In this document: piece after piece, positions 4,361-21,663 of the stretch | Position numbering within the stretch: the first letter of the stretch is position 1 | Layout of the letters: every line of letters begins with the position of its first letter | NCBI GenBank assembly: GCA_964445775.1 | Contig: CAYUMH010000004.1 | Location: 112,420 to 144,419, forward strand | DNA: 32,000 nucleotides | Direction: 5' to 3' | Origin: an uncultured Terrimonas sp. | GTDB taxonomy: Bacteria > Bacteroidota > Bacteroidia > Chitinophagales > Chitinophagaceae | Translations under genes and position numbers: made by a program | The notes under the pieces: model-generated | Told to the model about the DNA's origin: nothing | What the model saw: the letters and a program-made list of their open reading frames with translations, nothing else | The model's database searches: none

Positions 4361-6091
4361 ATGCATAAGGCTATAATGAAAAATTGGGTAAGATGTATAA
4401 AATGGCCAAAGCCGGCCCGGTTTTATGGTGGCTGGATGATAGGGTTATGCTTTTTCATTTCTTATAGCCTGGCCGCCCAATCAAATATTGATAGTATACG
4501 TACCGGGTTGAATAAGCCGGGCATTACAAAAAAAGAGAAGATCAATTATTTAAACAGGCTGGCTGCTTTTTTAAATAAAGATTCTACCAACCAGGCATTG
4601 GTGTATGCACATGAAGCATACCTGCTTAGCCTGAACGAAAATGATAAAAAACTCCAGGTAAACTCGCTGTTGAACCTTTCGGAAGGATACCTGTACAATG
4701 ACATTTACGACCAGGCCCTGCAATATGGGTATTCGGCACTGGACATCGCGGTTTTATTAAAAGATACTTTGCTGCTTGCCAACTGTAATACCAACCTTGG
4801 CTGGATTTTTTATGATACCGAGAACGTTAATTTCTCGCTGCAGTACCACCGTGAGGCTTATGGGTTATTTAAACAAAAAGGCGCTTTAAAAAATGTGGCC
4901 ATATCCTTAAATGCCATGGGGCTTATTTTTCAAATGAAAAATGAGAATGATTCGGCTAAGGTATATTTTGAACAATCTTTACAACTTGCCCGCGAACAGG
5001 ACCTGCGTTCCGTTATTTCGGCGGCACTCAATAATTTAGGCATTTGTGAAAATGTAGCGGGAAATTATAATGCAGCCATTGCGTATTTCCATAACGCATT
5101 GGCCATGAAAAGCCCTTCTGCTGATCTTTTATCCCTTGCCGAGATTGAAAACCAGATGGCTTTCTCCTACCTGAAGCTAAAAAACTACCAACGGGCTGAT
5201 TCCCTGCTCAAAAGTTCACGCAATTTAATTGACAGGTCCTCCTCTAACTCAAAAAAAGAGAAACTGCTGGATAACCTGCATATTGCTTCGCAACTGTTCG
5301 AGGTATTGGGCGATTATGCAAAAGCATTTGCCAACCTGAAAGAATATACCAATATCAGTAATCAGATCATCTCACGTAATAAAAGTGATGTATTGGCTAC
5401 TTTAAAACTAAAAAAAGAGGCGCAGGCAAAGGAAGACCAGATAAAAGAACTGCATGTACAAAAAGAGCTGCGCAGTTTTCAACGGAATGCCCTGGCCGGG
5501 GGCATTATATTGCTGGTAATAATCGGCATTTTGCTCTATGGCCGTTTACAGCAAAAGCAAAAAAGACAAAAAGAGCTGGATGCGGTAAAGCAGCAATTGA
5601 TAAAACAGGAACTGGATAGTACCCTGAGTGAAAAAGCCACTTTGAATGAAAAGCTGCAATATAAAAATGCCGATCTGAAAAGCTATGCCCTGTTTATAGC
5701 ACAGCGAAATGAAATGATCGGCCAGTTTATCGGCGAATTGAAAGGAATGAATATTAGTGCCAACCTGCCAAAGGAAACAGCCGTTGAACTGGACAAGGTT
5801 ATCCGTAAATTCCAGAAAAACCTGGATGTGAACAGCGAAACCCAGGATTTTAATTTATCGGTAGATGAAACCCTGAAAGACTTTTTTTATAACCTGCTTC
5901 AAAAATACCCCGGACTTACGGATAATGAACGCCGCCTTTGTGCACAGATCCGGCTCAATTTATCTATCAAGGAAATTGCCTCCCTCAATAACATTTCAGT
6001 AAAATCTGTTGAAATGGCCCGTTACCGGCTGCGTAAACATTTCGGATTGCAGTCACAGGATAACCTGGGTGATTTTCTGAAAACATTCTGA
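4361..6091 (+). CDS. Membrane-anchored TPR-repeat transcriptional regulator with C-terminal LuxR-type HTH
   Basis: N-terminal hydrophobic segment (WMIGLCFFISYSLAAQ), about 300 aa of TPR-like repeats, and a TM helix (ALAGGIILLVIIGILLYG). A coiled-coil region and a C-terminal LuxR/GerE HTH follow (LTDNERRLCAQIRLNLSIKEIASLNNISVKSVEMARYRLRKHF). The track ORF begins at 4337 with a non-ATG codon. ATG candidates are 4361 and 4376, so the start is uncertain. Confidence 0.8.
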   Translation: MHKAIMKNWVRCIKWPKPARFYGGWMIGLCFFISYSLAAQSNIDSIRTGLNKPGITKKEKINYLNRLAAFLNKDSTNQALVYAHEAYLLSLNENDKKLQVNSLLNLSEGYLYNDIYDQALQYGYSALDIAVLLKDTLLLANCNTNLGWIFYDTENVNFSLQYHREAYGLFKQKGALKNVAISLNAMGLIFQMKNENDSAKVYFEQSLQLAREQDLRSVISAALNNLGICENVAGNYNAAIAYFHNALAMKSPSADLLSLAEIENQMAFSYLKLKNYQRADSLLKSSRNLIDRSSSNSKKEKLLDNLHIASQLFEVLGDYAKAFANLKEYTNISNQIISRNKSDVLATLKLKKEAQAKEDQIKELHVQKELRSFQRNALAGGIILLVIIGILLYGRLQQKQKRQKELDAVKQQLIKQELDSTLSEKATLNEKLQYKNADLKSYALFIAQRNEMIGQFIGELKGMNISANLPKETAVELDKVIRKFQKNLDVNSETQDFNLSVDETLKDFFYNLLQKYPGLTDNERRLCAQIRLNLSIKEIASLNNISVKSVEMARYRLRKHFGLQSQDNLGDFLKTF

Positions 6092-6658
6092 TCGGTTTAC
6101 CGGCTTACCTTGTCCGGCGCTTCCCCAATCATCTTACAGCTAATATAAACAGCAGCCTGTACCTCACCGGCCGGTTTTACCTGGAGTGCATGTTGTATTC
6201 CTTATTTACCCCTCTCAACAACAGCGCAGCCATACCAGCTTCCGGCTGCCTCACTTACTGTTTTTTTGGCCCGTACAACCTATTAATTTGCCCGCATTTT
6301 GTTTTGAGCTTGAAACCGGGGTTGTAATATTATTGATTACAGTATATTATAATTATTTATTAATCATAGGTTTAAGAGCCGTGTAGAGGTGCTGTAGGGG
6401 TAAGGGTGGGGTTCGTGTATAGGCAAAAAAAGGGGAAACGCTTCTCTTTTAAATTATGTTTAGAAAATTATTTTTTTAGCAGTGCAGGCATACTAAAACT
6501 ATAATAACTGACGATTGCCATATCATTCATAAGGATCAAAACGAATTGCAAAAGGCCATATTTATATCATGGTAGCCCGTCTTTAAAAGCCGTTTTTAAG
6601 GTTTTGCTTGTTCCACTGTACTTCTTTTATCACAACTAACATTTTTAAACTTACTATC

Positions 6659-9600
6659 GTGAAAAAAAACTGCTGTCTCAAACACATTCCCCCGTTTGTG
6701 CAAAAAGTATTGCTGTTGAGTATTTTCCTTGCCTTCGGTGTCAGTGCCTTTGCCTTTCAACAGGCAGGCAACATTAAAGGACTGGTAACCGATGTGTCGG
6801 GCAATCCGTTACAGGGAGTTACCATCCAGTTAAAAAATACGACAACCGTTACTGTTACCGATGAAAATGGAAAATTCCGGTTGGAAGCTCCTGCAAAAGG
6901 GGTGCTCGTATTCTCTTTTACCGGCTATGCCGCTAAGGAGGTTGAAATAGGAAATCAGCTGGATATAACTGTTCAATTAACGCAGCAAGCTACTAACCTT
7001 GATGAAGTAGTGGTAATAGGCTACGGAACCCAGAAAAAAAGTAATTTAACCAGTGCCGTATCATCGGTAAAAGGCGATCAGCTGCAAAAAACAACCAGCA
7101 ATAACCCGGTTAATGCTTTACAGGGAAGGGTAGCTGGCCTTTCTGTAACAAGTCCGGGTGGTAACCCCGGGCAAATGTCCGATGTACGGTTACGTGGCAT
7201 TGGTACTTTTGGCGGTCACCAGCCATTATACGTTATTGATGGTACACCCGGCGACCCTTATTACCTGAACAATAATGATGTGGAGTCGATTGAGGTGTTA
7301 AAGGATGGCGCTGCTGCTTCCATTTACGGTTCTACCAGTGCCAATGGTGTGATCCTGATTACCACCAAACGTGGTAAAAAAGGCATACCACTCATTGATG
7401 TCAACAGTTATTACGGCCTTGCCAACCCCACTAAAAAGTATGATTTTTTAGATGCAGAGGGGTACAAGACCGTTCATAAAATGATGTACGAAAATGCGGG
7501 TGTTACTAACTTACCTGCTTACATTACCACCAATACCGGTGTTAATACCAATTGGCAGGACCTGATAACCCGCAGCGGAAATGTGCAGAATCATAATATT
7601 AATCTTCGCGGCGGCGGCGAATACCTGACGTTTGCACTCAGTGGCGATTATACCAATGAAACGGGAACATTTATCGGCTCAAAATTTAATAAAAAAGGTA
7701 TCCGGTCGGTTAATGAATTTAAAAAAGGAATATTAACAGTTACCAACAACCTCATTTTTTCACAAACCAGGTCCGAAGGCTATAAGTTCAATCTTGCCGA
7801 CGCTTATTTCCAATCTGCTTTATTACCGGTTTATGATAATAATGAAAAATACGGATATGCTTTAACGGTAAATGGTTTACCAAGGTTTCAAAACCCCGTG
7901 GGTGCCGATCACTTTATGGAAAACCACAGCACTACGCAATACCTGGCAGATAACTTAAAAATCCGCCTGCAGTTATTAAAAGGACTTAGCTATACGGCTA
8001 ATATCAACTATATAACAGCCAACAGCTTTGCGTACGAACATACACCTCCTTTCAGGGTAAATGCAAATGACCCGCTTATTTCCTATCCTTATGTGTACAA
8101 TAACAGGAGTAATTATAAGGAAATGCTGGCTGAGCACCTGTTGAATTATGACTGGAAGCGCGGTAAACACAATGTGTCATTACTCGCCGGTTATTCTGCG
8201 CAGCAAAAAACAAATGAATACTTAAGTGTAACAGCCGATGGAAAAACCATTGTACGTACAGTGGTGAACGGGGCTATTGTTGAAAAAGAAGTGGCAGGCG
8301 GATTTACCAATCCCGATTTTAACACCATCAGCGCAGGCCTGGGAGGTACTTTTAATGCTGCAGGCTCCAACAACAAATATGTACGTCATTCAGGCTTTGG
8401 ACGTATAAATTATGCGTATGATAATAAATACCTGTTACAGGTATCTGTGCGCAGGGACGGCTCTTCCATATTCGGATTAAATAACCGTTACGGTGTTTTC
8501 CCCTCTGTATCTGCCGGCTGGAACATCAGCAGGGAATCTTTTATGAGCCATATTACCTGGCTGAATAACTTAAAAATAAGAGCCAGTTACGGAGAGTTAG
8601 GAAATGAAGGTGCATTGGGTTATTACGATCACCAGGCCCTTATTACTACTTCCAACAGGTGGTCGGGTGGTTATGTACAAGGCGCGGGTGCCACACCATG
8701 GCCGGGTTCGGCCAGTTATGCGCTGGAAAACAGGGACCTTAAATGGGAGACCAGCAAATCCACCAATATAGGTGTTGATTTTGCGGTATTGCATAATACA
8801 CTATCCGGCTCTATTAACTATTACAACAATAAAACCGAAGGGTTACTGATCATTAAAGAAGTGCCTCCTTCTGCCGGGGTAAATGATCCTGTTTTAAATG
8901 TGGGTAAGATCGCCAATAAAGGAATAGAACTGGAACTGAATTATCTGTACCAGTTAAAAGAGGGGTCAGTAAATATTGGCGGCAACCTGAGTACGGTTTC
9001 CAATAAAGTGATCAGCCTTGCCGATGCGGAGCAGACTTTATACGGCACCGGGTTGAAATTCGGGTCAGATCATATTCCTACTCAAACAAAAGTGGGTAAA
9101 GAAATTGGCGCTTTTTACCTGTATGAAGCCGATGGTATTTTTAAAACTGACGCAGAAGCGGCGGCCTACAAAAATAAAGATGGCGATGCACTGCAACCTG
9201 ATGCCAAAGCAGGTGATATCCGGTTCAGGGATGCTAACGGCGATGGTGTTATTGATGAAAATGATAAAACCTACCAGGGTACCGGCTTTCCTAAATTTGA
9301 ATACGGTTTTAATATAGCGGCTAATTACAAACAATTTGATCTCTCTGTTTTTTTCCAGGGTGTAGGTGGAAATAAAATATACAACGGTAACCGTTTTGAA
9401 CTGGAAGGAATGGAAGCCGGCAGAAATTACCTGGCTACCACTTTGAATGCATGGACACCGCAAAATCCTAATTCATCTATGCCAAGGGCCGTATTAGGCG
9501 ATCCTAACGGCAATAGCCGTGAGTCCAACCGTTTCCTCGAAAACGGCGCATACCTGCGACTGAAATTATTACAGCTCGGTTATACTTTACCTACTGCATT

Positions 9601-9784
9601 GGTACAACGGGCCTGGATGCAGAAAGTCCGCATTTATGTGGGTGCACAAAACCTGTTAACCATTACTAAATACAATGGACTTGACCCCGAAGTGGGAAGG
9701 GTTAACGTGTTAAATACGGGTGTAGACAGGGTGTTATATCCGCAAAACAAAAGATGGATCGCAGGTATACAGATCACTTTATAA
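6659..9784 (+). CDS. susC: SusC/RagA-family TonB-dependent outer-membrane transporter
   Basis: About 1040 aa. It has a signal peptide (LLLSIFLAFGVSAFAFQ), a carboxypeptidase-regulatory-like domain (IKGLVTDVSGNPLQGVTIQLKN) and a TonB box/plug (DEVVVIGYGTQKK). The C-terminal barrel ends in an aromatic-rich terminus, and a SusD gene follows immediately. The track start at 6608 is TTG. GTG at 6659 (VKKNCC...) gives a more typical N-terminus. No STN signalling domain is present. Confidence 0.93.
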   Translation: MKKNCCLKHIPPFVQKVLLLSIFLAFGVSAFAFQQAGNIKGLVTDVSGNPLQGVTIQLKNTTTVTVTDENGKFRLEAPAKGVLVFSFTGYAAKEVEIGNQLDITVQLTQQATNLDEVVVIGYGTQKKSNLTSAVSSVKGDQLQKTTSNNPVNALQGRVAGLSVTSPGGNPGQMSDVRLRGIGTFGGHQPLYVIDGTPGDPYYLNNNDVESIEVLKDGAAASIYGSTSANGVILITTKRGKKGIPLIDVNSYYGLANPTKKYDFLDAEGYKTVHKMMYENAGVTNLPAYITTNTGVNTNWQDLITRSGNVQNHNINLRGGGEYLTFALSGDYTNETGTFIGSKFNKKGIRSVNEFKKGILTVTNNLIFSQTRSEGYKFNLADAYFQSALLPVYDNNEKYGYALTVNGLPRFQNPVGADHFMENHSTTQYLADNLKIRLQLLKGLSYTANINYITANSFAYEHTPPFRVNANDPLISYPYVYNNRSNYKEMLAEHLLNYDWKRGKHNVSLLAGYSAQQKTNEYLSVTADGKTIVRTVVNGAIVEKEVAGGFTNPDFNTISAGLGGTFNAAGSNNKYVRHSGFGRINYAYDNKYLLQVSVRRDGSSIFGLNNRYGVFPSVSAGWNISRESFMSHITWLNNLKIRASYGELGNEGALGYYDHQALITTSNRWSGGYVQGAGATPWPGSASYALENRDLKWETSKSTNIGVDFAVLHNTLSGSINYYNNKTEGLLIIKEVPPSAGVNDPVLNVGKIANKGIELELNYLYQLKEGSVNIGGNLSTVSNKVISLADAEQTLYGTGLKFGSDHIPTQTKVGKEIGAFYLYEADGIFKTDAEAAAYKNKDGDALQPDAKAGDIRFRDANGDGVIDENDKTYQGTGFPKFEYGFNIAANYKQFDLSVFFQGVGGNKIYNGNRFELEGMEAGRNYLATTLNAWTPQNPNSSMPRAVLGDPNGNSRESNRFLENGAYLRLKLLQLGYTLPTALVQRAWMQKVRIYVGAQNLLTITKYNGLDPEVGRVNVLNTGVDRVLYPQNKRWIAGIQITL

Positions 9785-9803
9785 TCAATTTAAAAATCGG
9801 GTA

Positions 9804-11333
9804 ATGAAAAAAATAACTTCAGTTTTATTGCTTTTAGCCACAGGGATGATGGTGATGACAGGCTGTAAAAAAGACCTGCTGAATCAAAATGCTCCTGATC
9901 AGTTAACTACGGATAATTTTTATACTTCTAAGGAAAAAGCCCTGTCGGGACTTGCCGCCGCCTATTCACAACTGGAGAGTTTTGTAGGCTGGGATAATTT
10001 TGTTGAGGCAAGGTCCGTAAGGGAATTCTACCGCGAGGATTATGTGAAGCCGGGAGATGATGCTTTCAACTATCCCTGGTGGATAGATCATTACAATTTT
10101 TCTTTTACATCGGGCAATTATGCCATTGATCTTTTATGGAGAGATAATTACCGGGGCTTGAACTTTACCAACCAGGTGTTGGGTAATGTTGCTAAAATGC
10201 CTGCTGAATTAATAGATGAAGCCAGCCGGAAAGAAATTTTAGCGGAAGCCAGGTTTTTAAGGGCTTATTATCACTTTAAATTATTGGTCAATTTTGAAAA
10301 AATAATTATCCGTGATAAAGTGCCTACTTCGGAAGCGGACCTGCCCAAAGCTACTTCTGAAAGAAAAGAAGTGTATGATATTATTATTGAAGATCTGAAA
10401 GCGGCAGAACAGGACCTTCCTTTAAAATCAAAACGTCCGGCTACAGAATTGGGCCGTGCTACCAAAGGCACCGTACAGGCCTACCTGGGTAAAGTGTACC
10501 TGTACAGGGCGGGTGAAGAGCCGGCCAATGCGGCGGCCTATTACACGGCGGCAGCAACCAGCCTGAACAATGTTATCCTGTCCGGGGAATATGATATGGA
10601 AACCAACTTTGTTGGCATGTTTAACGGTACCGTTAAAAACGGTACTGAGTCTGTATTTGAACTGCAACAAACTGCTGATGCATCTAATGGCGCCGTGTAC
10701 CGCTCGTACCTGGCTGATTGGATGGCTGCCTGGGAATTGGGCGGGTATGGTGAGATATATGGTACACAAAGATTATTGACCGAAATGCAGAAAGAGGGAA
10801 AAGTAGCAACCGGTAACTTATACGATCCGCGTTTATACCAGACCATGATTTTTGAAGATGCTTATTTTAATGATGATGCTAACCCTCGTGTATATGGTTA
10901 TACTTATGACGAGGTATTTGAAAACGGGTCGGGTGTACTGGCATTTAAAAAATGGATTCCGGCAGATATAACCCAGCTGGGACGTTCGCTGGCCATTAAT
11001 ATGCCGCTGATGCGTTATGCCGATGTGGTATTGATGTATGCGGAAGTATTGAATAACCAGGAAAAATTTGGCGATGCCATGGCGCAGGTAAATAGTTTGA
11101 GAACAAAACGAACCATGCCTGTTTTAGCGCTGAATAACAAACAGGCAATTTTTGACCAGATCATACACGAACGTGTTATGGAATTTACATTGGAAGGAAG
11201 CCGGTTTTATGATCTCAGGAGATGGGGATTACTGCAGCAAAATATGCAGGCAGCCGGAAGAACTTTTTCTGCGGATAAGGCTTTTTATCCTATTCCTTTA
11301 AAAGAAACCATCAACAATCCGCTGGTAAGGTAA
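9804..11333 (+). CDS. susD: SusD/RagB-family nutrient-binding outer-membrane lipoprotein
   Basis: 509 aa with a lipoprotein signal peptide and Cys (LLLLATGMMVMTGCKKD). SusD-like TPR-like helical core and conserved C-terminus (RVMEFTLEGSRFYDLRRWG). Lies 19 nt after susC. Confidence 0.93.
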   Translation: MKKITSVLLLLATGMMVMTGCKKDLLNQNAPDQLTTDNFYTSKEKALSGLAAAYSQLESFVGWDNFVEARSVREFYREDYVKPGDDAFNYPWWIDHYNFSFTSGNYAIDLLWRDNYRGLNFTNQVLGNVAKMPAELIDEASRKEILAEARFLRAYYHFKLLVNFEKIIIRDKVPTSEADLPKATSERKEVYDIIIEDLKAAEQDLPLKSKRPATELGRATKGTVQAYLGKVYLYRAGEEPANAAAYYTAAATSLNNVILSGEYDMETNFVGMFNGTVKNGTESVFELQQTADASNGAVYRSYLADWMAAWELGGYGEIYGTQRLLTEMQKEGKVATGNLYDPRLYQTMIFEDAYFNDDANPRVYGYTYDEVFENGSGVLAFKKWIPADITQLGRSLAINMPLMRYADVVLMYAEVLNNQEKFGDAMAQVNSLRTKRTMPVLALNNKQAIFDQIIHERVMEFTLEGSRFYDLRRWGLLQQNMQAAGRTFSADKAFYPIPLKETINNPLVR

Positions 11334-11348
11334 AGTGCAAAATGTTTT

Positions 11349-11380
11349 AAAGTCGCCGGCTTGTAAAAGCCGGCGACTTT
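11349..11380 (+). terminator. Perfect 14-bp stem / 4-nt loop hairpin between susD and the GH2 gene (terminator or attenuator/processing site)
   Basis: aaagtcgccggctt-gtaa-aagccggcgacttt, 15 nt after the susD stop. The stem is GC-rich, but no U-tract follows it, so its function is uncertain. Confidence 0.45.
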
Positions 11381-11424
11381 AACATGAATGTATTCGTGTA
11401 ACTATTTGAAAACAAAATGCTGTG

Positions 11425-14400
11425 ATGGTTAAAAAAAGTTGCTTCGGTTTTTTATTCGTTTTATTCATTGTAAATATTATAACTGCGCAGGAAATAAAAA
11501 ATGATTGGGAAAATCCCGGACTTCCTGTACATAATACCATGAAGCCGGCTGCCTGGTTTATTCCCTATCCCGGTGAAGCAGCTGCTCTGGCAAAAGGCAA
11601 TAGCCCCTTTGTAAAATCACTGGATGGTATATGGAAGTTTAACCTGGTGAATACGCCTGCAGAACGGCCTGCGGCATTTTATAAAGACAATTACGACCTG
11701 CGCAAATGGCATGATATAAAAGTACCGGCAAGCTGGCAGACCGAGGGTTTCGACCGTTTTATTTTTACCGATGTGGAATATCCCATTCCTGTGAATCCAC
11801 CATATGTGCCGGCCGATTATAACCCTGTAGGTTCCTATAAAAAAAGCTTTACTATTCCCGAAAACTGGAAAGGGAAAGATGTTTTCATTCATTTCGGCGC
11901 AGTCAGTTCTTTCTTTTATCTATGGATCAATGAACAGTATATTGGTTTTAGCAAGGACAGTAAAACAGAAGCAAAATTTGATATTACGCCTTACCTGAAA
12001 AAAGGACAGAATACCGTGTCGGTGCAGGTTTTTCGTTTTAGCGACGGTTCATACCTGGAAGGGCAGGACATGTGGAAGCTGAGCGGGATAGAAAGAACAG
12101 TGTACCTGACGGCCCGTCCTCCGTTTGCTGTGTATGATTTTTTTGTAAAGGCTTCGCTGGATAAGCAGTATAAAGATGGCCTGTTCAGTTTAAAAATTGC
12201 GTTTAATAAAAAGCCATCCGCCCGGGAAGCGCAGCAGTCTGTTCAGGTAAAAATTATTGATGAAGAAGCGAATAATAAAATTCTTTTTGAAGCTACACCC
12301 GCTATTACGCCAACAGGGGAAATATCTATCAACGAAGTCTTTCCCGGCATAAAAAAATGGAATGCCGAAACACCGCATTTGTACACACTTATTATTAACC
12401 ATATTAACAAAGAGGGGAAAATAATTGAAACTATCAGTCATAAAATTGGTTTCAGGAAAGCCGAAATATTACACGGTCTTTTTTTATTGAACGGTGTGGC
12501 GATAAAATTTAAAGGGGTGAACCGGCATGAGTTTGACATGATCAACGGGAAGGTGATCAACAGGGAGCAGATGATCCGGGATATTAGATTATTTAAAGAA
12601 TATAATATCAATGCGGTAAGAAACAGCCACTATCCTAATGCTCCGGAATGGTATGCCTTATGTGATCAGTACGGTATATATGTAGTAGATGAGGCGAATA
12701 TTGAATGTGACGGCATGAGTTTTTCGCCATTAAAAACTTTATCGGATAAAGCCGGTTGGAAAAATGCTTACCTGAACAGGACGGAAAGAATGTTTGAAGC
12801 AAACAAAAATTTCGCAAGCGTTATAACCTGGTCTTTGGGAAATGAGAGCCAGATGGGCGATAATTTCATCGCTACTTATCAATACCTGAAATCGGTTGAC
12901 GATAGCCGCCCGGTAGCTTATGAGCCTGCGAGCAGAACGGATTATTCAGATGTTTTTTTTCCGATGTATAAATCTTTGAATGTGATGCAGGAGTATGTGA
13001 AAGAATGGCGCAGCAAACCTTATATCCAGTGCGAATATGCGCATATGATGGGTAACAGCGGCGGCAATTTAAAAGAATACTGGGACCTGATCTACAGCAA
13101 TGAACAGTTACAGGGAGGATATATATGGGATTTTTCGGACCAGACCTTCCGCATCAAAGATAAAAACGGCAGGGATATCTGGGGCTATGGCCGGGATATG
13201 GGTAAGGTAGGCGAAACAAGCGATACCAGTTTTTGCGCCGATGGATTATTTTCAGCCGACAGGAAGCCACATCCGCAGGCATTTGAGCTAAAAAAAATAT
13301 ACCAGCATATTCATTTCAGTCCCGTTGATTTTGCTGCAAACAAAATTGACATAACCAACCGTTTTGATTTTACCAATCTTGGTCAATATAATTTTGAGTG
13401 GTATATAAAAGGTAACGGTGTAATGGTGGCACAGGGAAAACTAGACCAGCTGGATATAGCGCCGCATACAACAAAAACAATCCAATTAAATATACCCGTC
13501 TTTGATATAAAGCCGGGCGTAGAATATTTTTTAACCATCAATGCCAGGACCAAACAAAAATCGGCTTTATTGCCGGCAGATTTTTTACTGGCTTTTGAAC
13601 AGTTTAAATTACCTGTATACATAGAAAAAGAAGGGGGAGTAGTAAGTAATTTGCCTACACTGGAGTTATTACAAACCAATGACCAGGTAAAAATTGCTGC
13701 ATCATCATTTGCTGTTGTGTTTGATAAAAAAAGCGGTTGGTTATCCGGTTACCATTTACAGGGTGTAGCGATTATAAAAGAGGCTTTACAACCTCATTTC
13801 TGGCGCACAGCAACGGATAATGATATTGGTAACAGCCAGCAGATACGTTGTGCCGTTTGGCAGGATCCACTGAGAACGGCTGTATTGGATTCCATAACGG
13901 TGAAACAATTGGATAAACAACATATAGAAGTGAGTACTTTTCATTACCTGCCCGATATTAAGGCAAATTACCTGGCTACATACAGGGTAGCAGCCAATGG
14001 ATCAGTACAGGTGAATATTGAAATGCTGGCTTCGGCAGGGGACTTTCCCGAAATGCCCAGGTTTGGGATGAAGGTTATTTTGCATAAAGACTTTGGTCGT
14101 GTAAAATGGTTCGGGCGTGGCCCGTTTGATAATTACGAGGACCGTAAATCGGCGGCGAGTATTGATCTGTACCAGATGCCGGCCGACTCCCTGTTCCACC
14201 CCTATGCCCGGGCACAGGAAAGCGGGTATAGGACCGATGTGCGGTGGATAAGCCTGACCAATAAACAGGGACTTGGCCTGATGGCAGAAGGAAGCCCTGT
14301 TATCAGTACCGGTGTTTTACACTTTGATATGCATAAGCTGGAGTTTAATAAAGATGCGCCGGAAAATAACCACGGAGGCTCCATGATTAATGATGACCTG

Positions 14401-14535
14401 GTATGGTGGAATATTGATTACCGGCAAATGGGGGTAGGAGGCGATAACAGCTGGGGCGCAAAACCTCATGCCGCTTATTTATTACCCTATAGAAATTACC
14501 AGTATACTTTTACGTTAAGGCCGGTTAAGCCATAA
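11425..14535 (+). CDS. GH2 beta-galactosidase (LacZ-like), secreted/periplasmic
   Basis: About 1036 aa with a signal peptide (MVKKSCFGFLFVLFIVNIITAQE). Both LacZ catalytic motifs are present: acid/base WSLGNESQMG and nucleophile YIQCEYAHMMGNSGG. A C-terminal beta-galactosidase small-chain-like domain is also present. The track start at 11422 is GTG and the adjacent ATG is at 11425. Confidence 0.93.
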   Translation: MVKKSCFGFLFVLFIVNIITAQEIKNDWENPGLPVHNTMKPAAWFIPYPGEAAALAKGNSPFVKSLDGIWKFNLVNTPAERPAAFYKDNYDLRKWHDIKVPASWQTEGFDRFIFTDVEYPIPVNPPYVPADYNPVGSYKKSFTIPENWKGKDVFIHFGAVSSFFYLWINEQYIGFSKDSKTEAKFDITPYLKKGQNTVSVQVFRFSDGSYLEGQDMWKLSGIERTVYLTARPPFAVYDFFVKASLDKQYKDGLFSLKIAFNKKPSAREAQQSVQVKIIDEEANNKILFEATPAITPTGEISINEVFPGIKKWNAETPHLYTLIINHINKEGKIIETISHKIGFRKAEILHGLFLLNGVAIKFKGVNRHEFDMINGKVINREQMIRDIRLFKEYNINAVRNSHYPNAPEWYALCDQYGIYVVDEANIECDGMSFSPLKTLSDKAGWKNAYLNRTERMFEANKNFASVITWSLGNESQMGDNFIATYQYLKSVDDSRPVAYEPASRTDYSDVFFPMYKSLNVMQEYVKEWRSKPYIQCEYAHMMGNSGGNLKEYWDLIYSNEQLQGGYIWDFSDQTFRIKDKNGRDIWGYGRDMGKVGETSDTSFCADGLFSADRKPHPQAFELKKIYQHIHFSPVDFAANKIDITNRFDFTNLGQYNFEWYIKGNGVMVAQGKLDQLDIAPHTTKTIQLNIPVFDIKPGVEYFLTINARTKQKSALLPADFLLAFEQFKLPVYIEKEGGVVSNLPTLELLQTNDQVKIAASSFAVVFDKKSGWLSGYHLQGVAIIKEALQPHFWRTATDNDIGNSQQIRCAVWQDPLRTAVLDSITVKQLDKQHIEVSTFHYLPDIKANYLATYRVAANGSVQVNIEMLASAGDFPEMPRFGMKVILHKDFGRVKWFGRGPFDNYEDRKSAASIDLYQMPADSLFHPYARAQESGYRTDVRWISLTNKQGLGLMAEGSPVISTGVLHFDMHKLEFNKDAPENNHGGSMINDDLVWWNIDYRQMGVGGDNSWGAKPHAAYLLPYRNYQYTFTLRPVKP

Positions 14536-14596
14536 GTTAAAATAAAATATTTTCGGATTCTAATAACTCCGCTCAGGTGATTGATATAAGTTTTGA

Positions 14597-16552
<1,956 letters not shown>

Positions 16553-16562
16553 ACCTGGTGTT

Positions 16563-18878
16563 ATGCATTTTAATGAAACCTTTATCCGGCAACTGGCGAA
16601 TGACCAATACGGGCTGGATATAAAAGTAAGCCGGCTGAAAGGATACGATGAAGAGAATTTTTTACTGGAAGACAGAGTGGGAAAGAAGTATATCCTGAAA
16701 GTAGCAACGGAGCAACACAACTACGGTTTTATTGCTGCGCAGGTGGCTGTTTTGCAACATCTTTCCGGAACGGATTTGAAGGACATGTTCCAGCAAATTG
16801 TACCCGATATACAGGGCAACCCCATCTTTACTGTAAAACATTCCGGTGCAGTTTATTATATCAGGGTGCTTACTTACCTGGATGGAATATTCTGGGCAGA
16901 TCACAAAGACCGTACAGATGTTTTATATACTGACCTGGGTAGTTTTTTAGGTAAGATGGATAAGGCCTTACAAAATTTTTCACATGCGGCCATCCACCGG
17001 CGTTATACCTGGGACGTGACCACGGCCGCCGATGCGTATACGAATGTAAAATATATCAGGGATCATGAACTGCGCAGGATGGTTGGCTATTTTTTACTGC
17101 AGTTTGAAACAGAAGTAACGCCCTTTCTTCCCTCGTTACGACAGGCCTATATTCATAATGATGCAAATGATCTGAATATTTTAGTTGCTAATGACAGGAT
17201 AAAAGGATTGATCGATTTTGGTGATATGGTGCACAGCGCCCTGGTGGGTAACCTGGCCATTGCCTGTACCTATGCCATGTTCAATACGGACGATCCCCTG
17301 CATGCCGCTGTTAAAATAGTGGAAGGGTATCATGCAGTGTACCCGTTGACGATGCAGGAAACGGACCTGCTCTATTATCTGATAGCCGCCAGGTTATGCA
17401 TCAGTCTTACACAATCTGCCTATAATGCTTCATTAAGCTCAGCGAATGAGCATCATTTTGTGTCGGAAAAACCGGCCCGGGATTTATTATACAGGCTGAT
17501 TAAAATAAACCCGGTAAAGGCACAGGAAAGTTTCCGGTTATCATGTGGCTTTCCATCGTTAATTGATAAAACTGAGGGGTATGGTCCATTACTGCAGGAA
17601 AGAAGAAAACATATCGGCCGGAACCTGAGTATCAGTTATCAGCAGCCTTTAAAAATTGTAAAAGGTGCCTTGCAATATTTGTATGATGATCGGGGTAATA
17701 CATTTGTTGACTGCGTTAATAATGTAAGCCATGTGGGGCATTGCCATCCTGTTGTGGTAAAAGCCGTACAAAAGCAAATAGCCACACTTAATACCAATAC
17801 CAGGTACCTGAATGATGCTATTACCGATTTTGCGAAAGCGTTGATTGCAACCTTACCGCCTAAGCTTTCTGTATGTTATTTTACCAATTCGGGCAGTGAG
17901 GCAAATGACCTGGCGATACGGATGAGCCGGCATCTTACAAAGCAACAGGACGTGATCGTGTTAGATCATGCTTACCATGGCACAACAACGGTAGCCCTGG
18001 AGATGAGTCCTTATAAATTTGACGGCAAAGGAGGGTTTACACAAAAGCCGTACATCCATAAAGCTGTTTCACCCGATTTATACCGGGGTGAATTCCGTTA
18101 CCAGCACGAAGATGCCGGCATGCAATATGCAAACGCTGTAAAGACGATTATTGAGCAGCTATCGGCGGATAATAAAGGTGTTGCCGCTTTTATCTGCGAA
18201 ACACTGTTAGGTGTTGGCGGCCAGATACCTTTACCTAAAAACTACCTGAAGGAAGTATATAAACATGTACGGGCTGCCGGAGGTGTTTGTATTGCCGATG
18301 AGGTACAGGTTGGCTTTGGAAGAGTGGGTGAAAAATTCTGGGGCTTTGAATTGCAGGATGTGGAACCGGATATTGTTGTTTTAGGTAAACCAATAGGGAA
18401 CGGGCATCCGCTGGCGGCAGTGATTGTAACCGAAGAAATTGCAGATTGTTTTAATAATGGAATGGAATATTTTAATACCTATGGAGGCAATCCCGTTTCA
18501 ATGACCACGGGCCTGTCGGTGTTGCATGTAATAAAGGATGAAATGCTGCAACAACACGCAAAGGAAACAGGGGAGCATCTTCTTAGTCTACTTACTCTTT
18601 TAATGCATAAATATGCCATTATTGGTGATGTAAGGGGGCATGGCCTGTTTATTGGTGCCGAACTGGTCCGTAGCCGGGAAACAAAAGAACCGGCTGTAGC
18701 CGAGATCAATGCGATTGTGGAACGGATGAAAGAGAAGGGATTTTTGTTGAGTACAGACGGCCCTTTGCATAACGTATTAAAGATAAAACCACCCCTGGTA
18801 TTTAATAAAGCGGATGCAACCGAAATGGTAACCATGCTGGAGGAGGTATTGGAGGAGATGAACATGGATAAGCTGTAA
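16563..18878 (+). CDS. Bifunctional fusion: hydroxylysine-kinase-like (APH-fold) domain + class-III aminotransferase-fold phospho-lyase domain
   Basis: 771 aa with no signal peptide. Residues ~1-335 resemble human HYKK/AGPHD1 ([27 protein letters not shown], Brenner motif [12 protein letters not shown] at nt 17151-17186, LIDFGDM). Residues ~345-771 resemble PHYKPL/ETNPPL ([44 protein letters not shown]). The PLP lysine lies in [12 protein letters not shown], with the Lys codon at 18387-18389. Confidence 0.9.
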
Positions 18879-18968: not shown

Positions 18969-20318
18969 ATGACGATTCGTATATTACGTGTGCTGACTTA
19001 TTTACGCAAGAAACTGCGTTTACCCAACGACCCGGAAAGTATCAGGCTGTCTACGGAACGTATCAGGGACAGCGCTGAGATTGCTGGTGTGAACTTATGG
19101 GTACTGGTGATCGCTATTTTTATTGCCTGCCTGGGCTTAAATACTGATTCGGTAACCGTGGTCATCGGTGCGATGTTAATATCGCCGTTGATGGGCCCTA
19201 TATCGGCTCTCGGTCTGGGCCTGGGTATTAACGACTGGGAACTGATAAAGAGAGCCCTGCGTAATCTTATTGTAGCGGCCTTGTTATCGCTTATTACTTC
19301 TACTGTATTTTTTCTTATCAGTCCCATGAAGGATGCGGGACAAATGTTATTATCACAAACCTCTCCCTCCTTATATGATGTATTGATCGCATTTTTTGGT
19401 GGCCTGGCCAGTATTATGGCCAGTTCCAGTAAACTAAGGGCCAGTAATGTAATACCAGGTGTGGCCATTGCTACTACTTTAATGATGCCCCTGTGTACTG
19501 CAGGATATGGTATATCGATAGGAGAGTGGCGGTATATTGCCGGAGCTATTTATATGTTCTTTATCAACTCGGTATTTATTGGTGCCGCTACTTTTTTAAT
19601 GGTCAACCTGTTTGGTTATCCTAAAGTAAGTATTCACGATAGTAAAAAACGTAAACGTACCAGGGCCATTATTGCCACATTGCTCATCATTACCTTTATT
19701 CCCAGTGTGTACCTGACCTATCATATTGTTACCCGTTATTTTTTTGAAAAGAATGCCAATGCTTTTATTAAAAACGAAGTACAGGATAAGGATCATTTTG
19801 TGATCACCAAAAGATTGTTGTATAACCGGAATAAACCTGTTATTGAGTTGAGTATGCTGGGCCAGAATATTGACAGTGTTCACTATGCCGAACTGGTAAA
19901 ACGCATGCCCAAATATTTCCTGGGCCATGTGGGTCTGGTATTATTCCAGGGCCAGGATAGCCGGGTGGCCGCCAAGTCATATTTTGACCAGATAAGCAGC
20001 GGGCTTGAAATGAATAATGCTGCTATTCAAAATTTATACCGGCGGGTGGATAGTCTGCAAAAAATAACTGACCAGCAGTTGTATGTGGATAGCCTGGAAT
20101 ATAAAATTGGTAAGCTGGTACACACGGTTGATAGCAGTGTACAAAGCGTGCGTGTATCCAGCGTAATAGCCTACAATATGGTGAAAGCTAAAAAAGATAC
20201 TTCCTGGACTGCACAGCTGCAGTTTCAAAAAAATCCTTCACCGGCTGACCGTAATAAAATGACTGATCTGCTAAAAGAAAAGTTAGGCCTGCAAAATATG
20301 CAGCTGCGTTTCGATTAA
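18969..20318 (+). CDS. DUF389-family integral membrane protein with ~200-aa C-terminal soluble extension
   Basis: 449 aa. The multi-TM N-terminal half has the DUF389-type motif GAMLISPLMGPI. The C-terminal half is hydrophilic. Function unknown. Confidence 0.7.
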   Translation: MTIRILRVLTYLRKKLRLPNDPESIRLSTERIRDSAEIAGVNLWVLVIAIFIACLGLNTDSVTVVIGAMLISPLMGPISALGLGLGINDWELIKRALRNLIVAALLSLITSTVFFLISPMKDAGQMLLSQTSPSLYDVLIAFFGGLASIMASSSKLRASNVIPGVAIATTLMMPLCTAGYGISIGEWRYIAGAIYMFFINSVFIGAATFLMVNLFGYPKVSIHDSKKRKRTRAIIATLLIITFIPSVYLTYHIVTRYFFEKNANAFIKNEVQDKDHFVITKRLLYNRNKPVIELSMLGQNIDSVHYAELVKRMPKYFLGHVGLVLFQGQDSRVAAKSYFDQISSGLEMNNAAIQNLYRRVDSLQKITDQQLYVDSLEYKIGKLVHTVDSSVQSVRVSSVIAYNMVKAKKDTSWTAQLQFQKNPSPADRNKMTDLLKEKLGLQNMQLRFD

Positions 20319-21591: not shown

Positions 21592-21663
21592 AGCGGAGCA
21601 AAGGTAGTAGTTATTAGGTTTTTCCAAAAGTTCAAAGGCGGTTGGAAATGGGCATTTGTATTA

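What the first reader, a model, noticed from the sequence alone, without database searches (positions are those of the whole stretch)
4361..18878. PUL-like locus whose three enzymes match stepwise breakdown of collagen-type Glc-alpha1,2-Gal-beta-O-hydroxylysine
Seen in sequence: five co-directional genes separated by 19, 91, 64 and 10 nt. They are susC, susD, a LacZ-type GH2 with both catalytic Glu motifs, a YgjK-type GH63, and a kinase/PLP-enzyme fusion. Both glycosidases carry signal peptides, while the fusion does not and is therefore cytoplasmic.
Established knowledge: the conserved collagen-domain O-glycan is Glc-alpha1,2-Gal-beta1-O-5-hydroxylysine. In animals, hydroxylysine kinase (HYKK/AGPHD1) and 5-phosphohydroxylysine phospho-lyase (PHYKPL/AGXT2L2) convert free hydroxylysine to 2-aminoadipate semialdehyde, ammonia and phosphate. 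From memory, glycosynthase and structural work on E. coli YgjK pointed to Glc-alpha1,2-Gal as a preferred ligand.
Inference: SusCD would import the glycopeptide or glycosyl-amino acid, GH63 would remove the alpha1,2-Glc, GH2 would remove the beta-Gal from Hyl, and the fusion would channel hydroxylysine into lysine catabolism. I know of no described bacterial locus dedicated to glucosylgalactosyl-hydroxylysine. A glycan PUL ending in an amino-acid-specific kinase/lyase is unusual in its own right.
Basis: partly seen in the sequence, partly recalled or inferred. Interest (0 to 1): 0.85.

Follow-up and report, generated by a model that had tools for sequence, protein, structure and literature searches.

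The report
Bacterial locus for collagen's sugar-hydroxylysine
A soil Bacteroidota gene cluster joins an outer-membrane importer, an alpha-glucosidase, a beta-galactosidase and a hydroxylysine kinase/lyase, which fits stepwise consumption of the glucose-galactose-hydroxylysine unit found in collagen, a route not yet described in bacteria.

Summary
The + strand carries susC, susD, a LacZ-type GH2, a YgjK-type GH63 and a 771-aa APH-kinase/class-III PLP-enzyme fusion, with gaps of 19, 91, 64 and 10 nt. The catalytic motifs are intact. Both glycosidases have signal peptides and the fusion has none. The stated start (4361) belongs to a sixth, unmentioned gene, a TPR/HTH regulator candidate.

I examined 62 species-level loci with enough upstream sequence. 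In 50 the fusion sits beside a secreted beta-galactosidase, and 42 of those also carry GH63.

- **Enzyme family swaps:** GH2 is replaced by GH42 in Flavobacterium. GH63 is replaced once by a GH31.
- **Downstream pathway:** Relatives place 2-aminoadipate-semialdehyde (P6C) dehydrogenase, HglS and a YdiJ-like dehydrogenase in the same gene row. This points to hydroxylysine rather than ethanolamine.
- **Collagen link:** Two Flavobacterium species embed GH63-GH42-fusion among hydroxyproline-catabolic genes and prolyl peptidases.

Weak points remain. The window itself lacks those downstream genes. The lyase half is slightly closer to human ETNPPL than to PHYKPL. No enzyme has been assayed. I found no paper describing such a locus. 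Verdict: a new variant of a known kind, interest about 0.78.

The parts
4361..6091 (+). Candidate regulator with TPR repeats, one transmembrane segment and a weak C-terminal HTH. The ORF opens at TTG 4337 and the first ATG is 4361.
   Evidence: Pfam TPR_12 at 74 bits. NCBIfam BT3442-family match at 56.7 bits, well below its cut-off. The C-terminus gives only a weak Sigma70_r4_2 match (E 0.0014) and a weak DUF6377 match. A 49%-identical gene lies upstream of susC in L077. Its role as regulator is inferred.
6608..9784 (+). SusC-type TonB-dependent outer-membrane transporter. The probable real start is GTG 6659.
   Evidence: TIGR04056 at 840.6 bits against a cut-off of 368, plus Plug, CarboxypepD_reg and barrel domains. 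Start read from the sequence. It is 45-47% identical to the SusC of the Flavobacterium loci and 71-74% identical to some Chitinophagaceae.
9804..11333 (+). SusD-family surface lipoprotein, the presumed ligand-binding lid.
   Evidence: PF07980 at 95 bits and PF14322 at 73 bits. Lipobox MVMTGC. It is 43-47% identical to the Flavobacterium partners.
11422..14535 (+). Secreted LacZ-type GH2 beta-galactosidase. Proposed to release Gal from Gal-beta-O-hydroxylysine.
   Evidence: Five LacZ domains. NCBIfam Bga2A at 998.8 bits against a cut-off of 999. 32% identical to LacZ and 31% to EbgA, with E475 and E538 aligned to LacZ E461 and E537. Signal peptide read from the sequence. Orthologues are next to the fusion in 16 other loci, and GH42 takes this role in 37.
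14600..16552 (+). Secreted YgjK-type GH63 alpha-glucosidase. Proposed to remove the alpha-1,2-Glc cap.
   Evidence: PF21152 YgjK_N and PF22422. 30% identical to E. coli YgjK, E 2e-100, with D429 and E621 aligned to D501 and E727. Below the NCBIfam YgjK equivalog cut-off, at 416.8 against 625. Next to the fusion in 47 other loci.
16563..17582 (+). N-terminal half of the fusion: a cytoplasmic APH-fold small-molecule kinase. Proposed to be a 5-hydroxylysine kinase.
   Evidence: PF01636. K46, HxDxxxxN and DFGD are invariant. AlphaFold model pLDDT 91.6. The nearest solved folds are homoserine kinase II (2ppq), amicoumacin kinase, NahK and aminopropanol kinase. One source names an orthologue 'hydroxylysine kinase / 5-phosphonooxy-L-lysine phospho-lyase' (P0037).
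17583..18878 (+). C-terminal half of the fusion: a PLP-dependent phospho-lyase of the ETNPPL/PHYKPL subfamily. Proposed to be a 5-phosphohydroxylysine phospho-lyase yielding 2-aminoadipate semialdehyde, ammonia and phosphate.
   Evidence: PF00202 at 261 bits. Human ETNPPL 6tor gives E 6.5e-148 and 54% identity, against 2.9e-55 for the best true racemase or transaminase. PLP-Lys K609 is invariant.
18969..20318 (+). DUF389 membrane protein, 90 nt downstream and co-directional. Membership of the locus is doubtful.
   Evidence: PF04087. Found in this position only in the window and in Terrimonas rubra L001. A near-match to a Bacteroidota promoter motif precedes it. A transporter role would be pure speculation.

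Best explanation
The locus is a PUL-type system that feeds on the collagen-type glycosyl-amino acid Glc-alpha1,2-Gal-beta-O-5-hydroxylysine, its Gal-Hyl form, or short glycopeptides carrying them.

**Proposed steps.**
1. SusCD takes the compound across the outer membrane.
2. In the periplasm the GH63 removes the alpha-1,2-glucose.
3. The GH2 then removes the beta-galactose. This frees the 5-hydroxyl of hydroxylysine.
4. An unlinked inner-membrane carrier imports hydroxylysine.
5. The cytoplasmic fusion phosphorylates that same 5-hydroxyl. It then eliminates phosphate and ammonia to give 2-aminoadipate semialdehyde.
6. This enters the AmaB (P6C dehydrogenase), HglS and YdiJ route to 2-oxoglutarate.

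**Shown here.** The genes, domains, catalytic residues, leader peptides and the conserved gene association.

**Inferred.** Every substrate assignment, the order of the steps, co-transcription and the regulator.
For: 1. **Anatomy.** The five genes and their motifs are as described.

2. **Association across two classes of Bacteroidota.** In 62 loci with at least 9 kb upstream, 50 carry GH2 or GH42 and 42 also carry GH63. GH63 never occurs without a beta-galactosidase. All of these glycosidases have leader peptides.

3. **Different families, same function.** Flavobacterium uses GH63-GH42-fusion. Chitinophagaceae use GH2-GH63-fusion. L004 has GH2-GH31-fusion. Gene order and SusCD lineage also differ, which argues for repeated assembly rather than one inherited block.

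4. **Downstream pathway in the same gene row.**
   - Flavobacterium: Lrp< >HglS-P6CDH-[susC-susD]-GH63-GH42-fusion-YdiJ.
   - Chitinophaga L056: susC-susD-GH2-GH63-fusion-HglS-P6CDH, with gaps of -4, 4, 15 and -1 nt.
   - P6CDH passes its curated equivalog cut-off, at 827.5 against 730 bits.
   - The functions of HglS, YdiJ and AmaB are taken from bioRxiv 10.1101/450254 and 10.1101/2020.01.30.927905.

5. **Collagen context in L053 and L071.** The row reads S37 peptidase, Pyr2C reductase (above its cut-off), trans-3-hydroxyproline-dehydratase-like, GH63, GH42, fusion, M24 prolidase, DPP-IV, aminopeptidase P, D-amino-acid dehydrogenase, proline-racemase family, aldehyde dehydrogenase, DHDPS family.

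6. **Chemical logic (inference).** The 5-OH is both the glycosylation site and the phosphorylation site. Deglycosylation must therefore precede the kinase.

8. **Lyase subfamily.** The lyase half belongs to the animal phospho-lyase subfamily.
Against: - The 32-kb window and its closest relative L001 have no P6CDH, HglS or YdiJ near the fusion.
- The locus encodes no inner-membrane transporter for hydroxylysine and no peptidase.
- The lyase half is 54% identical to human ETNPPL. Sequence alone does not favour hydroxylysine.
- Homology of the kinase half to animal HYKK could not be confirmed against a named sequence.
- GH63 is only 30% identical to YgjK and falls below the curated YgjK cut-off. 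Recent literature still lists nigerose as the preferred GH63 substrate.
- 12 of 62 loci have the fusion with unrelated neighbours, including F. psychrophilum.
- Many of the loci are related Flavobacterium species, so the counts are not independent events.
- There are no expression, growth or enzyme data.
Confidence: 0.65

Rival explanations
1. This is an ordinary sugar PUL for lactose-like beta-galactosides and alpha-glucosides such as kojibiose, nigerose or a microbial or plant Glc-alpha1,2-Gal glycan. It merely happens to sit beside an unrelated amino-alcohol catabolic gene. The fusion acts on ethanolamine or 1-amino-2-propanol, as ETNPPL and the aminopropanol kinase/phospho-lyase pair do.
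For: - The best solved relative of the lyase half is ethanolamine-phosphate phospho-lyase, at 54% identity.
- Aminopropanol kinase 6ef6 is among the fold matches of the kinase half.
- The literature gives nigerose as the preferred substrate of YgjK-type GH63.
- E. coli has GH2 (ebgA) and GH63 (ygjK) together without any fusion.
- 12 of 62 loci carry the fusion without glycosidases.
Against: - The fusion stays beside a beta-galactosidase and an alpha-glucosidase in two bacterial classes. This holds despite changes of enzyme family, gene order and SusCD lineage.
- In Flavobacterium susCD and the glycosidases are sandwiched between HglS/P6CDH and the fusion/YdiJ.
- HglS and P6C dehydrogenase have no role in ethanolamine or aminopropanol breakdown.
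Confidence: 0.12
2. The glycosyl-hydroxylysine chemistry is right but the source is not animal collagen. The substrate could be a glycosylated hydroxylysine, or a similar delta-hydroxy amino compound, from other organisms. Candidates are collagen-like proteins of giant viruses or microbes, or other soil glycoconjugates.
For: - The organisms are mostly soil and freshwater Chitinophagaceae and Flavobacterium.
- Giant-virus collagens are glycosylated on hydroxylysine (PMC9546862, listed).
- Nothing in the window itself is collagen-specific.
Against: - L053 and L071 place the module among genes whose families fit 3-hydroxyproline and 4-hydroxyproline catabolism, and among prolyl peptidases. That fits animal-type collagen peptides.
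- L060 and L079 have DHDPS-family, aldehyde dehydrogenase and DPP-IV genes nearby.
- Several carriers are fish- or leech-associated Flavobacterium species.
Confidence: 0.13
3. The fusion recycles hydroxylysine from the bacterium's own or neighbours' hydroxylysine-containing aminolipids, or simply uses free hydroxylysine. The glycosidases serve a separate substrate.
For: - Hydroxylysine lipids exist in soil Bacteroidota (PMC4484230).
- The fusion stands alone in 12 of 62 loci.
Against: - This does not explain why secreted beta-galactosidase and alpha-glucosidase genes and susCD are kept in the same gene row as the fusion and the 2-aminoadipate pathway genes.
- The position of the hydroxyl group in the lipid head group is not known to be C5. 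This last point rests on my own knowledge of that paper's abstract.
Confidence: 0.07

Closest known systems
Animal hydroxylysine catabolism: HYKK (AGPHD1) plus PHYKPL (AGXT2L2). Source: Veiga-da-Cunha et al. 2012, J Biol Chem 287:7246, cited from memory because the paper is not held.
   Same: An APH-fold kinase is followed by a class-III PLP phospho-lyase. The lyase half is 50-54% identical to the human paralogues. As I recall, that paper already noted bacterial bi- and tri-functional kinase-lyase fusions and used them as the clue to the human enzymes.
   Different: Here the two activities are one polypeptide. The substrate of the bacterial fusions has never been tested, to my knowledge. The gene is embedded in a SusCD/glycosidase locus. 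The lyase half is marginally closer to ETNPPL than to PHYKPL.
Animal protein-glucosylgalactosylhydroxylysine glucosidase, PGGHG/ATHL1, a GH65 enzyme (PMC8626586, PMC11012932).
   Same: The proposed reaction is the same: removal of alpha-1,2-Glc from Glc-Gal-Hyl by an inverting (alpha/alpha)6-barrel glucosidase.
   Different: The family and clan differ: GH63 in clan GH-G against GH65 in clan GH-L. The enzyme here is bacterial and periplasmic. It is coupled to complete catabolism of the amino acid.
E. coli YgjK (GH63) and its neighbourhood ebgA-ebgC-ygjI-ygjJ-ygjK.
   Same: The GH63 is 30% identical with the same catalytic Asp and Glu. YgjK was crystallised with Glc-alpha1,2-Gal (3W7W). It lies in a row with a LacZ-type GH2, EbgA.
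   Different: E. coli has an amino-acid-permease-type transporter, YgjI, instead of SusCD. EbgA has no leader peptide, by my own knowledge. E. coli has no kinase/lyase fusion there. The window GH2 is no closer to EbgA (31%) than to LacZ (32%).
Classical Bacteroidota polysaccharide utilization loci, such as Sus and host-glycan PULs.
   Same: A SusC/SusD pair is followed by secreted exo-glycosidases, with a nearby regulator candidate.
   Different: The predicted cargo is a glycosyl-amino acid or small glycopeptide of about 0.5 kDa, not a polysaccharide. In relatives the locus continues into cytoplasmic amino-acid catabolism, with the fusion, HglS, P6CDH and YdiJ.
Pseudomonas putida D-lysine/2-aminoadipate route AmaB - PP_4108 - HglS - YdiJ (bioRxiv 10.1101/450254).
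   Same: Relatives of the window locus encode P6C dehydrogenase, HglS and a YdiJ-like dehydrogenase next to the fusion.
   Different: Entry into the pathway would be from 5-hydroxylysine through phosphorylation and elimination, not from lysine. No dedicated 2-aminoadipate aminotransferase was seen in the loci. These genes are absent from the window itself.

Membership tests
Polysaccharide utilization locus (PUL) | Adjacent SusC-type TonB-dependent transporter and SusD-family lipoprotein | tested here: met
   TIGR04056 at 840.6 bits against a cut-off of 368. PF07980 and PF14322. The two genes are 19 nt apart.
Polysaccharide utilization locus (PUL) | Co-directional secreted carbohydrate-active enzymes | tested here: met
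   GH2 and GH63 with N-terminal leader peptides, in the same strand row with short gaps.
Polysaccharide utilization locus (PUL) | Dedicated sensor or regulator (HTCS, SusR, or ECF/anti-sigma) | tested here: inconclusive
   The upstream TPR/TM protein has only weak HTH signals. Sigma70_r4_2 gives E 0.0014, SusR model 19 bits, and BT3442 family 56.7 bits against a cut-off of 940.
Polysaccharide utilization locus (PUL) | Substrate-dependent co-transcription | not testable with these tools
   The consensus promoter and terminator scan showed no excess and no intergenic terminators. No expression data are available.
GH2 LacZ-type beta-galactosidase | Five-domain LacZ architecture with acid/base and nucleophile Glu | tested here: met
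   PF02837, PF00703, PF02836, PF16353 and PF02929. E475 and E538 align with LacZ E461 and E537.
GH2 LacZ-type beta-galactosidase | Curated equivalog score (NCBIfam Bga2A, NF052611) | tested here: inconclusive
   998.8 bits against a cut-off of 999.
GH2 LacZ-type beta-galactosidase | Hydrolysis of Gal-beta-O-hydroxylysine | not testable with these tools
   Needs an enzyme assay.
GH63 YgjK-type alpha-glucosidase | N-terminal beta-sandwich plus (alpha/alpha)6 barrel, with general acid Asp and general base Glu | tested here: met
   PF21152 and PF22422. D429 and E621 align with D501 and E727.
GH63 YgjK-type alpha-glucosidase | Curated YgjK equivalog score (NF007525) | tested here: not met
   416.8 bits against a cut-off of 625. 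YgjK has two large insertions that are absent here. This is a GH63 relative of YgjK, not an equivalog.
GH63 YgjK-type alpha-glucosidase | Preference for Glc-alpha1,2-Gal | not testable with these tools
   Only the existence of the YgjK-ligand complex 3W7W is documented. The +1 subsite residues could not be mapped without coordinates.
Hydroxylysine kinase (HYKK/AGPHD1) | APH/eukaryotic-like kinase fold with the catalytic HxDxxxxN and DFG-type motifs | tested here: met
   PF01636. K46, H198, D200, N205 and D218-D221 are invariant. Model pLDDT 91.6, with the closest folds being small-molecule hydroxyl kinases.
Hydroxylysine kinase (HYKK/AGPHD1) | Orthology to animal HYKK | tested here: inconclusive
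   There is no HYKK structure in the PDB. The AlphaFold library was unavailable. The representative search gave unnamed hits. The only support is a source annotation of orthologue P0037 and my memory of the 2012 paper.
Hydroxylysine kinase (HYKK/AGPHD1) | Phosphorylation of 5-hydroxy-L-lysine | not testable with these tools
   Needs an assay. The context with P6CDH, HglS and YdiJ supports it indirectly.
Ammonio-phospho-lyases ETNPPL/PHYKPL (class-III aminotransferase fold) | Class-III fold with PLP lysine, clearly closer to phospho-lyases than to transaminases | tested here: met
   6tor gives E 6.5e-148 and 5g4i gives 4.9e-92. The best other class-III enzyme gives 2.9e-55. K609 is invariant.
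Ammonio-phospho-lyases ETNPPL/PHYKPL (class-III aminotransferase fold) | Closer to PHYKPL than to ETNPPL | tested here: not met
   54% identity to ETNPPL against 50% to a PHYKPL sequence recalled from memory and unverified. The difference is small and the bacterial protein may be an outgroup to both.

The most novel reading that the evidence does not exclude
These loci are the first microbial pathway for complete breakdown of collagen's glycosylated hydroxylysine. A SusCD pair imports a glycosyl-amino acid rather than a polysaccharide.

The recurring pair of beta-galactosidase and GH63 would define the long-unknown natural substrate class of YgjK-type GH63 enzymes. By extension, the E. coli ebgAC-ygjIJK row would act on the same Glc-alpha1,2-Gal-beta-amino-acid conjugates. 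That row contains the 'evolved beta-galactosidase', whose natural role has never been settled, plus an amino-acid-permease-type transporter and YgjK.
Probability: 0.25. Interest if true: 0.9.

Novelty: new variant of a known kind. Interest (0 to 1): 0.78.

Why it matters
Collagen is the most abundant animal protein. From established knowledge, its Glc-Gal-Hyl and Gal-Hyl units survive animal proteolysis and are excreted. No microbial route for them turned up in ten full-text searches. If the reading is right, it would do the following.

- **Carbon and nitrogen cycling.** It fills a gap in the turnover of animal remains.
- **GH63 function.** It gives a physiological substrate to bacterial GH63 enzymes, which are still described as nigerose- or kojibiose-type glucosidases.
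- **Bacterial fusions.** It assigns a function to the widespread bacterial kinase/phospho-lyase fusions, known only as bioinformatic clues since 2012.
- **SusCD cargo.** It extends SusCD substrates to glycosyl-amino acids.
- **A linked pathway.** It shows a glycan locus wired directly into an amino-acid pathway (hydroxylysine to 2-aminoadipate to D-2-hydroxyglutarate to 2-oxoglutarate).
- **Practical uses.** It offers enzymes for collagen glycoform analysis and a testable idea for the natural role of E. coli Ebg.

Tried and rejected
- **Naming the kinase half as HYKK.** All routes failed.
  - PDB sequence search gave no hit.
  - The PDB fold search gave only generic small-molecule kinases.
  - The 1.84-billion-protein search gave many 33-40% identical stand-alone kinases, but their clusters carry no useful names.
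- **Contexts of three distant relatives** (P0126, P0137, P0136) were uninformative.
- **Separating hydroxylysine from ethanolamine by paralogue identity** did not work. The result was 54% to ETNPPL against 50% to a recalled PHYKPL.
- **Exact look-up of the window's fusion** to find its source contig: not on record.
- **Sigma-70 promoter and terminator scan:** no excess over shuffles and no operon boundaries.
- **Unannotated neighbours as hidden GH63 relatives.** I tested c9 (about 670-690 aa), c10 (about 485 aa) and c94 (430 aa) with HMM and profile-profile comparison. All were negative.
- **Is the window GH2 an EbgA orthologue?** No. It is equidistant from EbgA and LacZ.
- **The 2012 hydroxylysine-kinase paper** could not be read.
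- **One literature search was badly framed** and returned only generic PUL papers.

Full report
**Observation.** The + strand of the window carries a tight row of genes.

| Gene | Coordinates | Notes |
|---|---|---|
| susC | 6608-9784 | A more plausible start is GTG 6659, giving a normal signal peptide |
| susD | 9804-11333 | Lipoprotein signal |
| GH2 | 11422/11425-14535 | Leader peptide |
| GH63 | 14600-16552 | Leader peptide |
| fusion | 16563-18878 | 771 aa, no leader |

- Pfam and NCBIfam confirm each assignment.
  - SusC scores 840.6 bits on TIGR04056.
  - SusD matches PF07980 and PF14322.
  - GH2 has the full five-domain LacZ architecture. It scores 998.8 bits on the Bga2A model, whose cut-off is 999.
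  - GH63 has a YgjK_N domain plus an (alpha/alpha)6 domain.
  - The fusion has APH and Aminotran_3 domains.
- The catalytic residues are in place.
  - GH2 E475 and E538 align with LacZ E461 and E537.
  - GH63 D429 and E621 align with YgjK D501 and E727.
  - The kinase Lys, HxDxxxxN and DFGD motifs and the PLP lysine K609 are invariant among homologues.
- The two glycosidases begin with typical leader peptides and the fusion does not. I read this from the sequence.
- The one discrepancy is the stated start. It encodes a TPR/transmembrane protein with only weak HTH signals and is probably the regulator.

**Source organism.** The closest genome is Terrimonas rubra, a member of the Chitinophagaceae. 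It has the same gene order at 89-98% protein identity (L001).

**Is the gene association real?**
- A scan of one genome per species found 327 loci encoding relatives of the fusion. The best 80 were fetched with 10-kb flanks. They come mostly from Flavobacterium and Chitinophagaceae.
- I searched them by tblastn with the window proteins. I also clustered all ORFs of these loci and annotated the recurrent clusters.
- Counts for the 62 loci with at least 9 kb upstream of the fusion:

| Feature on the same strand | Loci |
|---|---|
| Beta-galactosidase (GH2 or GH42) | 50 |
| Beta-galactosidase plus GH63 | 42 |
| GH63 without a beta-galactosidase | 0 |
| susC plus susD | 37 |
| Beta-galactosidase but no GH63 | 8 |
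| None of these glycosidases | 12 |

- The beta-galactosidase differs between lineages. Chitinophagaceae use the LacZ-type GH2. Flavobacterium uses a GH42 (PF02449 at 377 bits, 37 loci).
- In L004 a GH31 occupies the GH63 position. That is a single locus, and GH31 specificity is broad.
- All of these enzymes carry leader peptides, including the GH42s, several of which look like lipoproteins.
- Gene order also differs: GH2-GH63-fusion against GH63-GH42-fusion. At least two SusCD lineages are used.
- The required functions are therefore conserved while the parts are exchanged. That is what a functional coupling predicts and what chance adjacency does not.

**What does the fusion act on?**
- *Sequence evidence.*
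  - The lyase half belongs to the animal phospho-lyase subfamily. It scores E 6.5e-148 and 54% identity to human ETNPPL (6tor), and 4.9e-92 to the Arthrobacter phospho-lyase. The best ordinary class-III enzyme scores 2.9e-55.
  - The kinase half modelled with high confidence (pLDDT 91.6). It resembles small-molecule hydroxyl kinases such as homoserine kinase II and aminopropanol kinase.
  - I could not compare the kinase half with a named HYKK.
  - Sequence alone therefore leaves hydroxylysine, ethanolamine and aminopropanol all open.
- *Genomic context.*
  - Three further genes share the fusion's strand and row in 38 of 80 loci.
  - One is an aldehyde dehydrogenase that passes the curated equivalog threshold for L-piperideine-6-carboxylate (2-aminoadipate semialdehyde) dehydrogenase. 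It scores 827.5 bits against a cut-off of 730.
  - One is a DUF1338/HglS 2-oxoadipate dioxygenase/decarboxylase.
  - One is a 980-aa FAD/Fe-S protein that best matches D-2-hydroxyglutarate dehydrogenase YdiJ.
  - In Pseudomonas putida these three activities carry 2-aminoadipate semialdehyde to 2-oxoglutarate.
  - Flavobacterium rows read Lrp-type regulator (divergent), HglS, P6CDH, [susC, susD], GH63, GH42, fusion, YdiJ.
  - Chitinophaga L056 reads susC, susD, GH2, GH63, fusion, HglS, P6CDH, with gaps of -4, 4, 15 and -1 nt.
  - 2-Aminoadipate semialdehyde is the product of 5-phosphohydroxylysine phospho-lyase. It is not a product of ethanolamine or aminopropanol breakdown.
  - I take this context as the strongest evidence for hydroxylysine.

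**Is it collagen?**
- In Flavobacterium taihuense and F. laiguense (L053, L071) the GH63-GH42-fusion module is flanked by the following genes:
  - an S37 peptidase;
  - a Pyr2C/Pip2C reductase, above its curated cut-off;
  - a trans-3-hydroxyproline-dehydratase-like protein;
  - an M24 Xaa-Pro dipeptidase;
  - DPP-IV;
  - aminopeptidase P;
  - a D-amino-acid dehydrogenase;
  - a second proline-racemase-family protein;
  - an aldehyde dehydrogenase;
  - a DHDPS-family protein.
- At family level this is the known set for 3- and 4-hydroxyproline catabolism plus proline-specific peptidases. It amounts to a collagen-peptide island.
- L060 and L079 show a smaller version.
- Several carriers are fish- or leech-associated species.

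**Mechanism proposed.**
- SusCD imports Glc-Gal-Hyl, Gal-Hyl or small glycopeptides.
- The periplasmic GH63 removes the alpha-1,2-glucose. The beta-galactosidase then removes galactose.
- Hydroxylysine enters the cell through an unlinked carrier.
- The fusion phosphorylates the now free 5-hydroxyl and eliminates phosphate and ammonia.
- The glycan occupies the very hydroxyl that the kinase needs. The glycosidases are therefore obligatory upstream steps, which explains the linkage. This last point is an inference.
- The loci with only a beta-galactosidase would handle the Gal-Hyl glycoform.

**Weaknesses.**
- The window and T. rubra lack P6CDH, HglS and YdiJ within reach.
- No inner-membrane transporter or peptidase is encoded in the locus. 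The downstream DUF389 gene is conserved only in Terrimonas.
- GH63 is 30% identical to YgjK and below the curated YgjK cut-off.
- A 2026 preprint still lists nigerose as the preferred GH63 substrate. It also cites the YgjK-Glc-alpha1,2-Gal complex 3W7W.
- 12 of 62 loci have the fusion alone, so free hydroxylysine or another source must suffice there. Hydroxylysine aminolipids of Bacteroidota are one candidate (PMC4484230).
- The many Flavobacterium loci are not independent.
- Nothing has been assayed.

**Comparison with what is known.**
- The kinase-lyase chemistry is that of animal HYKK and PHYKPL. From memory, the 2012 paper that identified them already used bacterial kinase-lyase fusions as a clue, but their substrate and context were not studied.
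- The only enzyme known to deglucosylate Glc-Gal-Hyl is animal PGGHG, a GH65.
- Ten full-text searches found no paper linking hydroxylysine with GH63, SusCD, PULs, Flavobacterium catabolism or HglS. This is absence in one library, not proof of absence.
- I therefore class the locus as a new variant of a known kind. It is a PUL whose cargo is a glycosyl-amino acid and which runs on into amino-acid catabolism.

**Seen in passing.**
- In E. coli K-12, ygjK lies in the row ebgA-ebgC-ygjI-ygjJ-ygjK.
- YgjI is an amino-acid-permease-family protein.
- The pairing of a LacZ-type GH2 with a GH63 therefore recurs outside Bacteroidota, beside an amino-acid-type carrier.
- The window GH2 is not specifically EbgA-like, so this is only a lead.
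- It does suggest a testable natural substrate for the Ebg system.

**Verdict.**

| Item | Result |
|---|---|
| Observation | Confirmed |
| Interpretation | Supported by comparative genomics, confidence about 0.65 |
| Novelty | New variant of a known kind |
| Interest | 0.78 |

Noticed in passing
L081 (E. coli K-12 NC_000913.3 3224000-3238000) and L082: The characterised GH63 ygjK lies in a co-directional row ebgR-ebgA-ebgC-ygjI-ygjJ-ygjK. That row joins a LacZ-type GH2, an amino-acid-permease-family transporter and GH63. It echoes the window's GH2+GH63 pairing and hints at a natural substrate for the 'evolved beta-galactosidase'.
   Followed up: partly
L053 and L071, whole loci (Flavobacterium taihuense, F. 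laiguense): The GH63-GH42-fusion module is embedded in an apparent collagen-peptide island. It contains an S37 peptidase, Pyr2C reductase, a 3-hydroxyproline-dehydratase-like protein, M24 prolidase, DPP-IV, aminopeptidase P, a D-amino-acid dehydrogenase, a proline-racemase-family protein, an aldehyde dehydrogenase and a DHDPS-family protein.
   Followed up: yes
L009 15899-22289, and likewise L035, L037, L046, L048, L054, L062; also L073 7675-9753: A second, convergent PUL (susC-susD plus two secreted proteins of about 485 and about 670 aa with no Pfam match) abuts the YdiJ gene in seven of the Flavobacterium loci. In L073 the 692-aa member of the second family lies directly upstream of the fusion, next to a GH29 fucosidase. 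These may be unclassified glycosidases. HMM and hhalign tests show no relation to GH63.
   Followed up: partly
L069 518-1813 and L078 1227-2519: A 430-aa secreted protein sits immediately upstream of the fusion in one Chitinophagaceae MAG. It has a weak GH94-superfamily (alpha/alpha)6 match and could be another stand-in glycosidase.
   Followed up: partly
L017 7813-9948 and the other Flavobacterium GH42 genes: These GH42 beta-galactosidases have N-terminal leaders with a Cys in a lipobox-like context (for example ...VAGC, ...IANC). GH42 enzymes are usually cytoplasmic, by my own knowledge.
   Followed up: no
window 6608-6700: The longest susC ORF starts at TTG 6608. GTG 6659 gives a conventional signal peptide (MKKNCCLKHIPPFVQKVLLLSIFLAFGVSAFA) and is the more likely start.
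   Followed up: partly
window 18969-20318 (+) and 20332-21627 (-): A DUF389/TIGR00341-type membrane protein follows the fusion by 90 nt. It converges on an EntS-like MFS transporter. Both are conserved only in Terrimonas rubra, so they are probably not part of the core system.
   Followed up: partly
window 27776-28165 (+): A small (129 aa) bacterial SET-domain protein (PF00856, 64.9 bits) lies next to MgtE and a TPR histidine kinase / LuxR-type response regulator pair.
   Followed up: no
window 25533-26201 (+): A 222-aa ORF has a highly repetitive Lys/Ala/Pro-rich N-terminus (KKAAPKKAVKKAAPKK...) that looks histone-H1-like. It has no Pfam match.
   Followed up: no
L010 2352-9939 and L018: In two Chitinophagaceae the GH2-fusion pair is preceded by myo-inositol oxygenase, a sodium:solute symporter and a GFO/IDH/MocA oxidoreductase, instead of susCD.
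   Followed up: no
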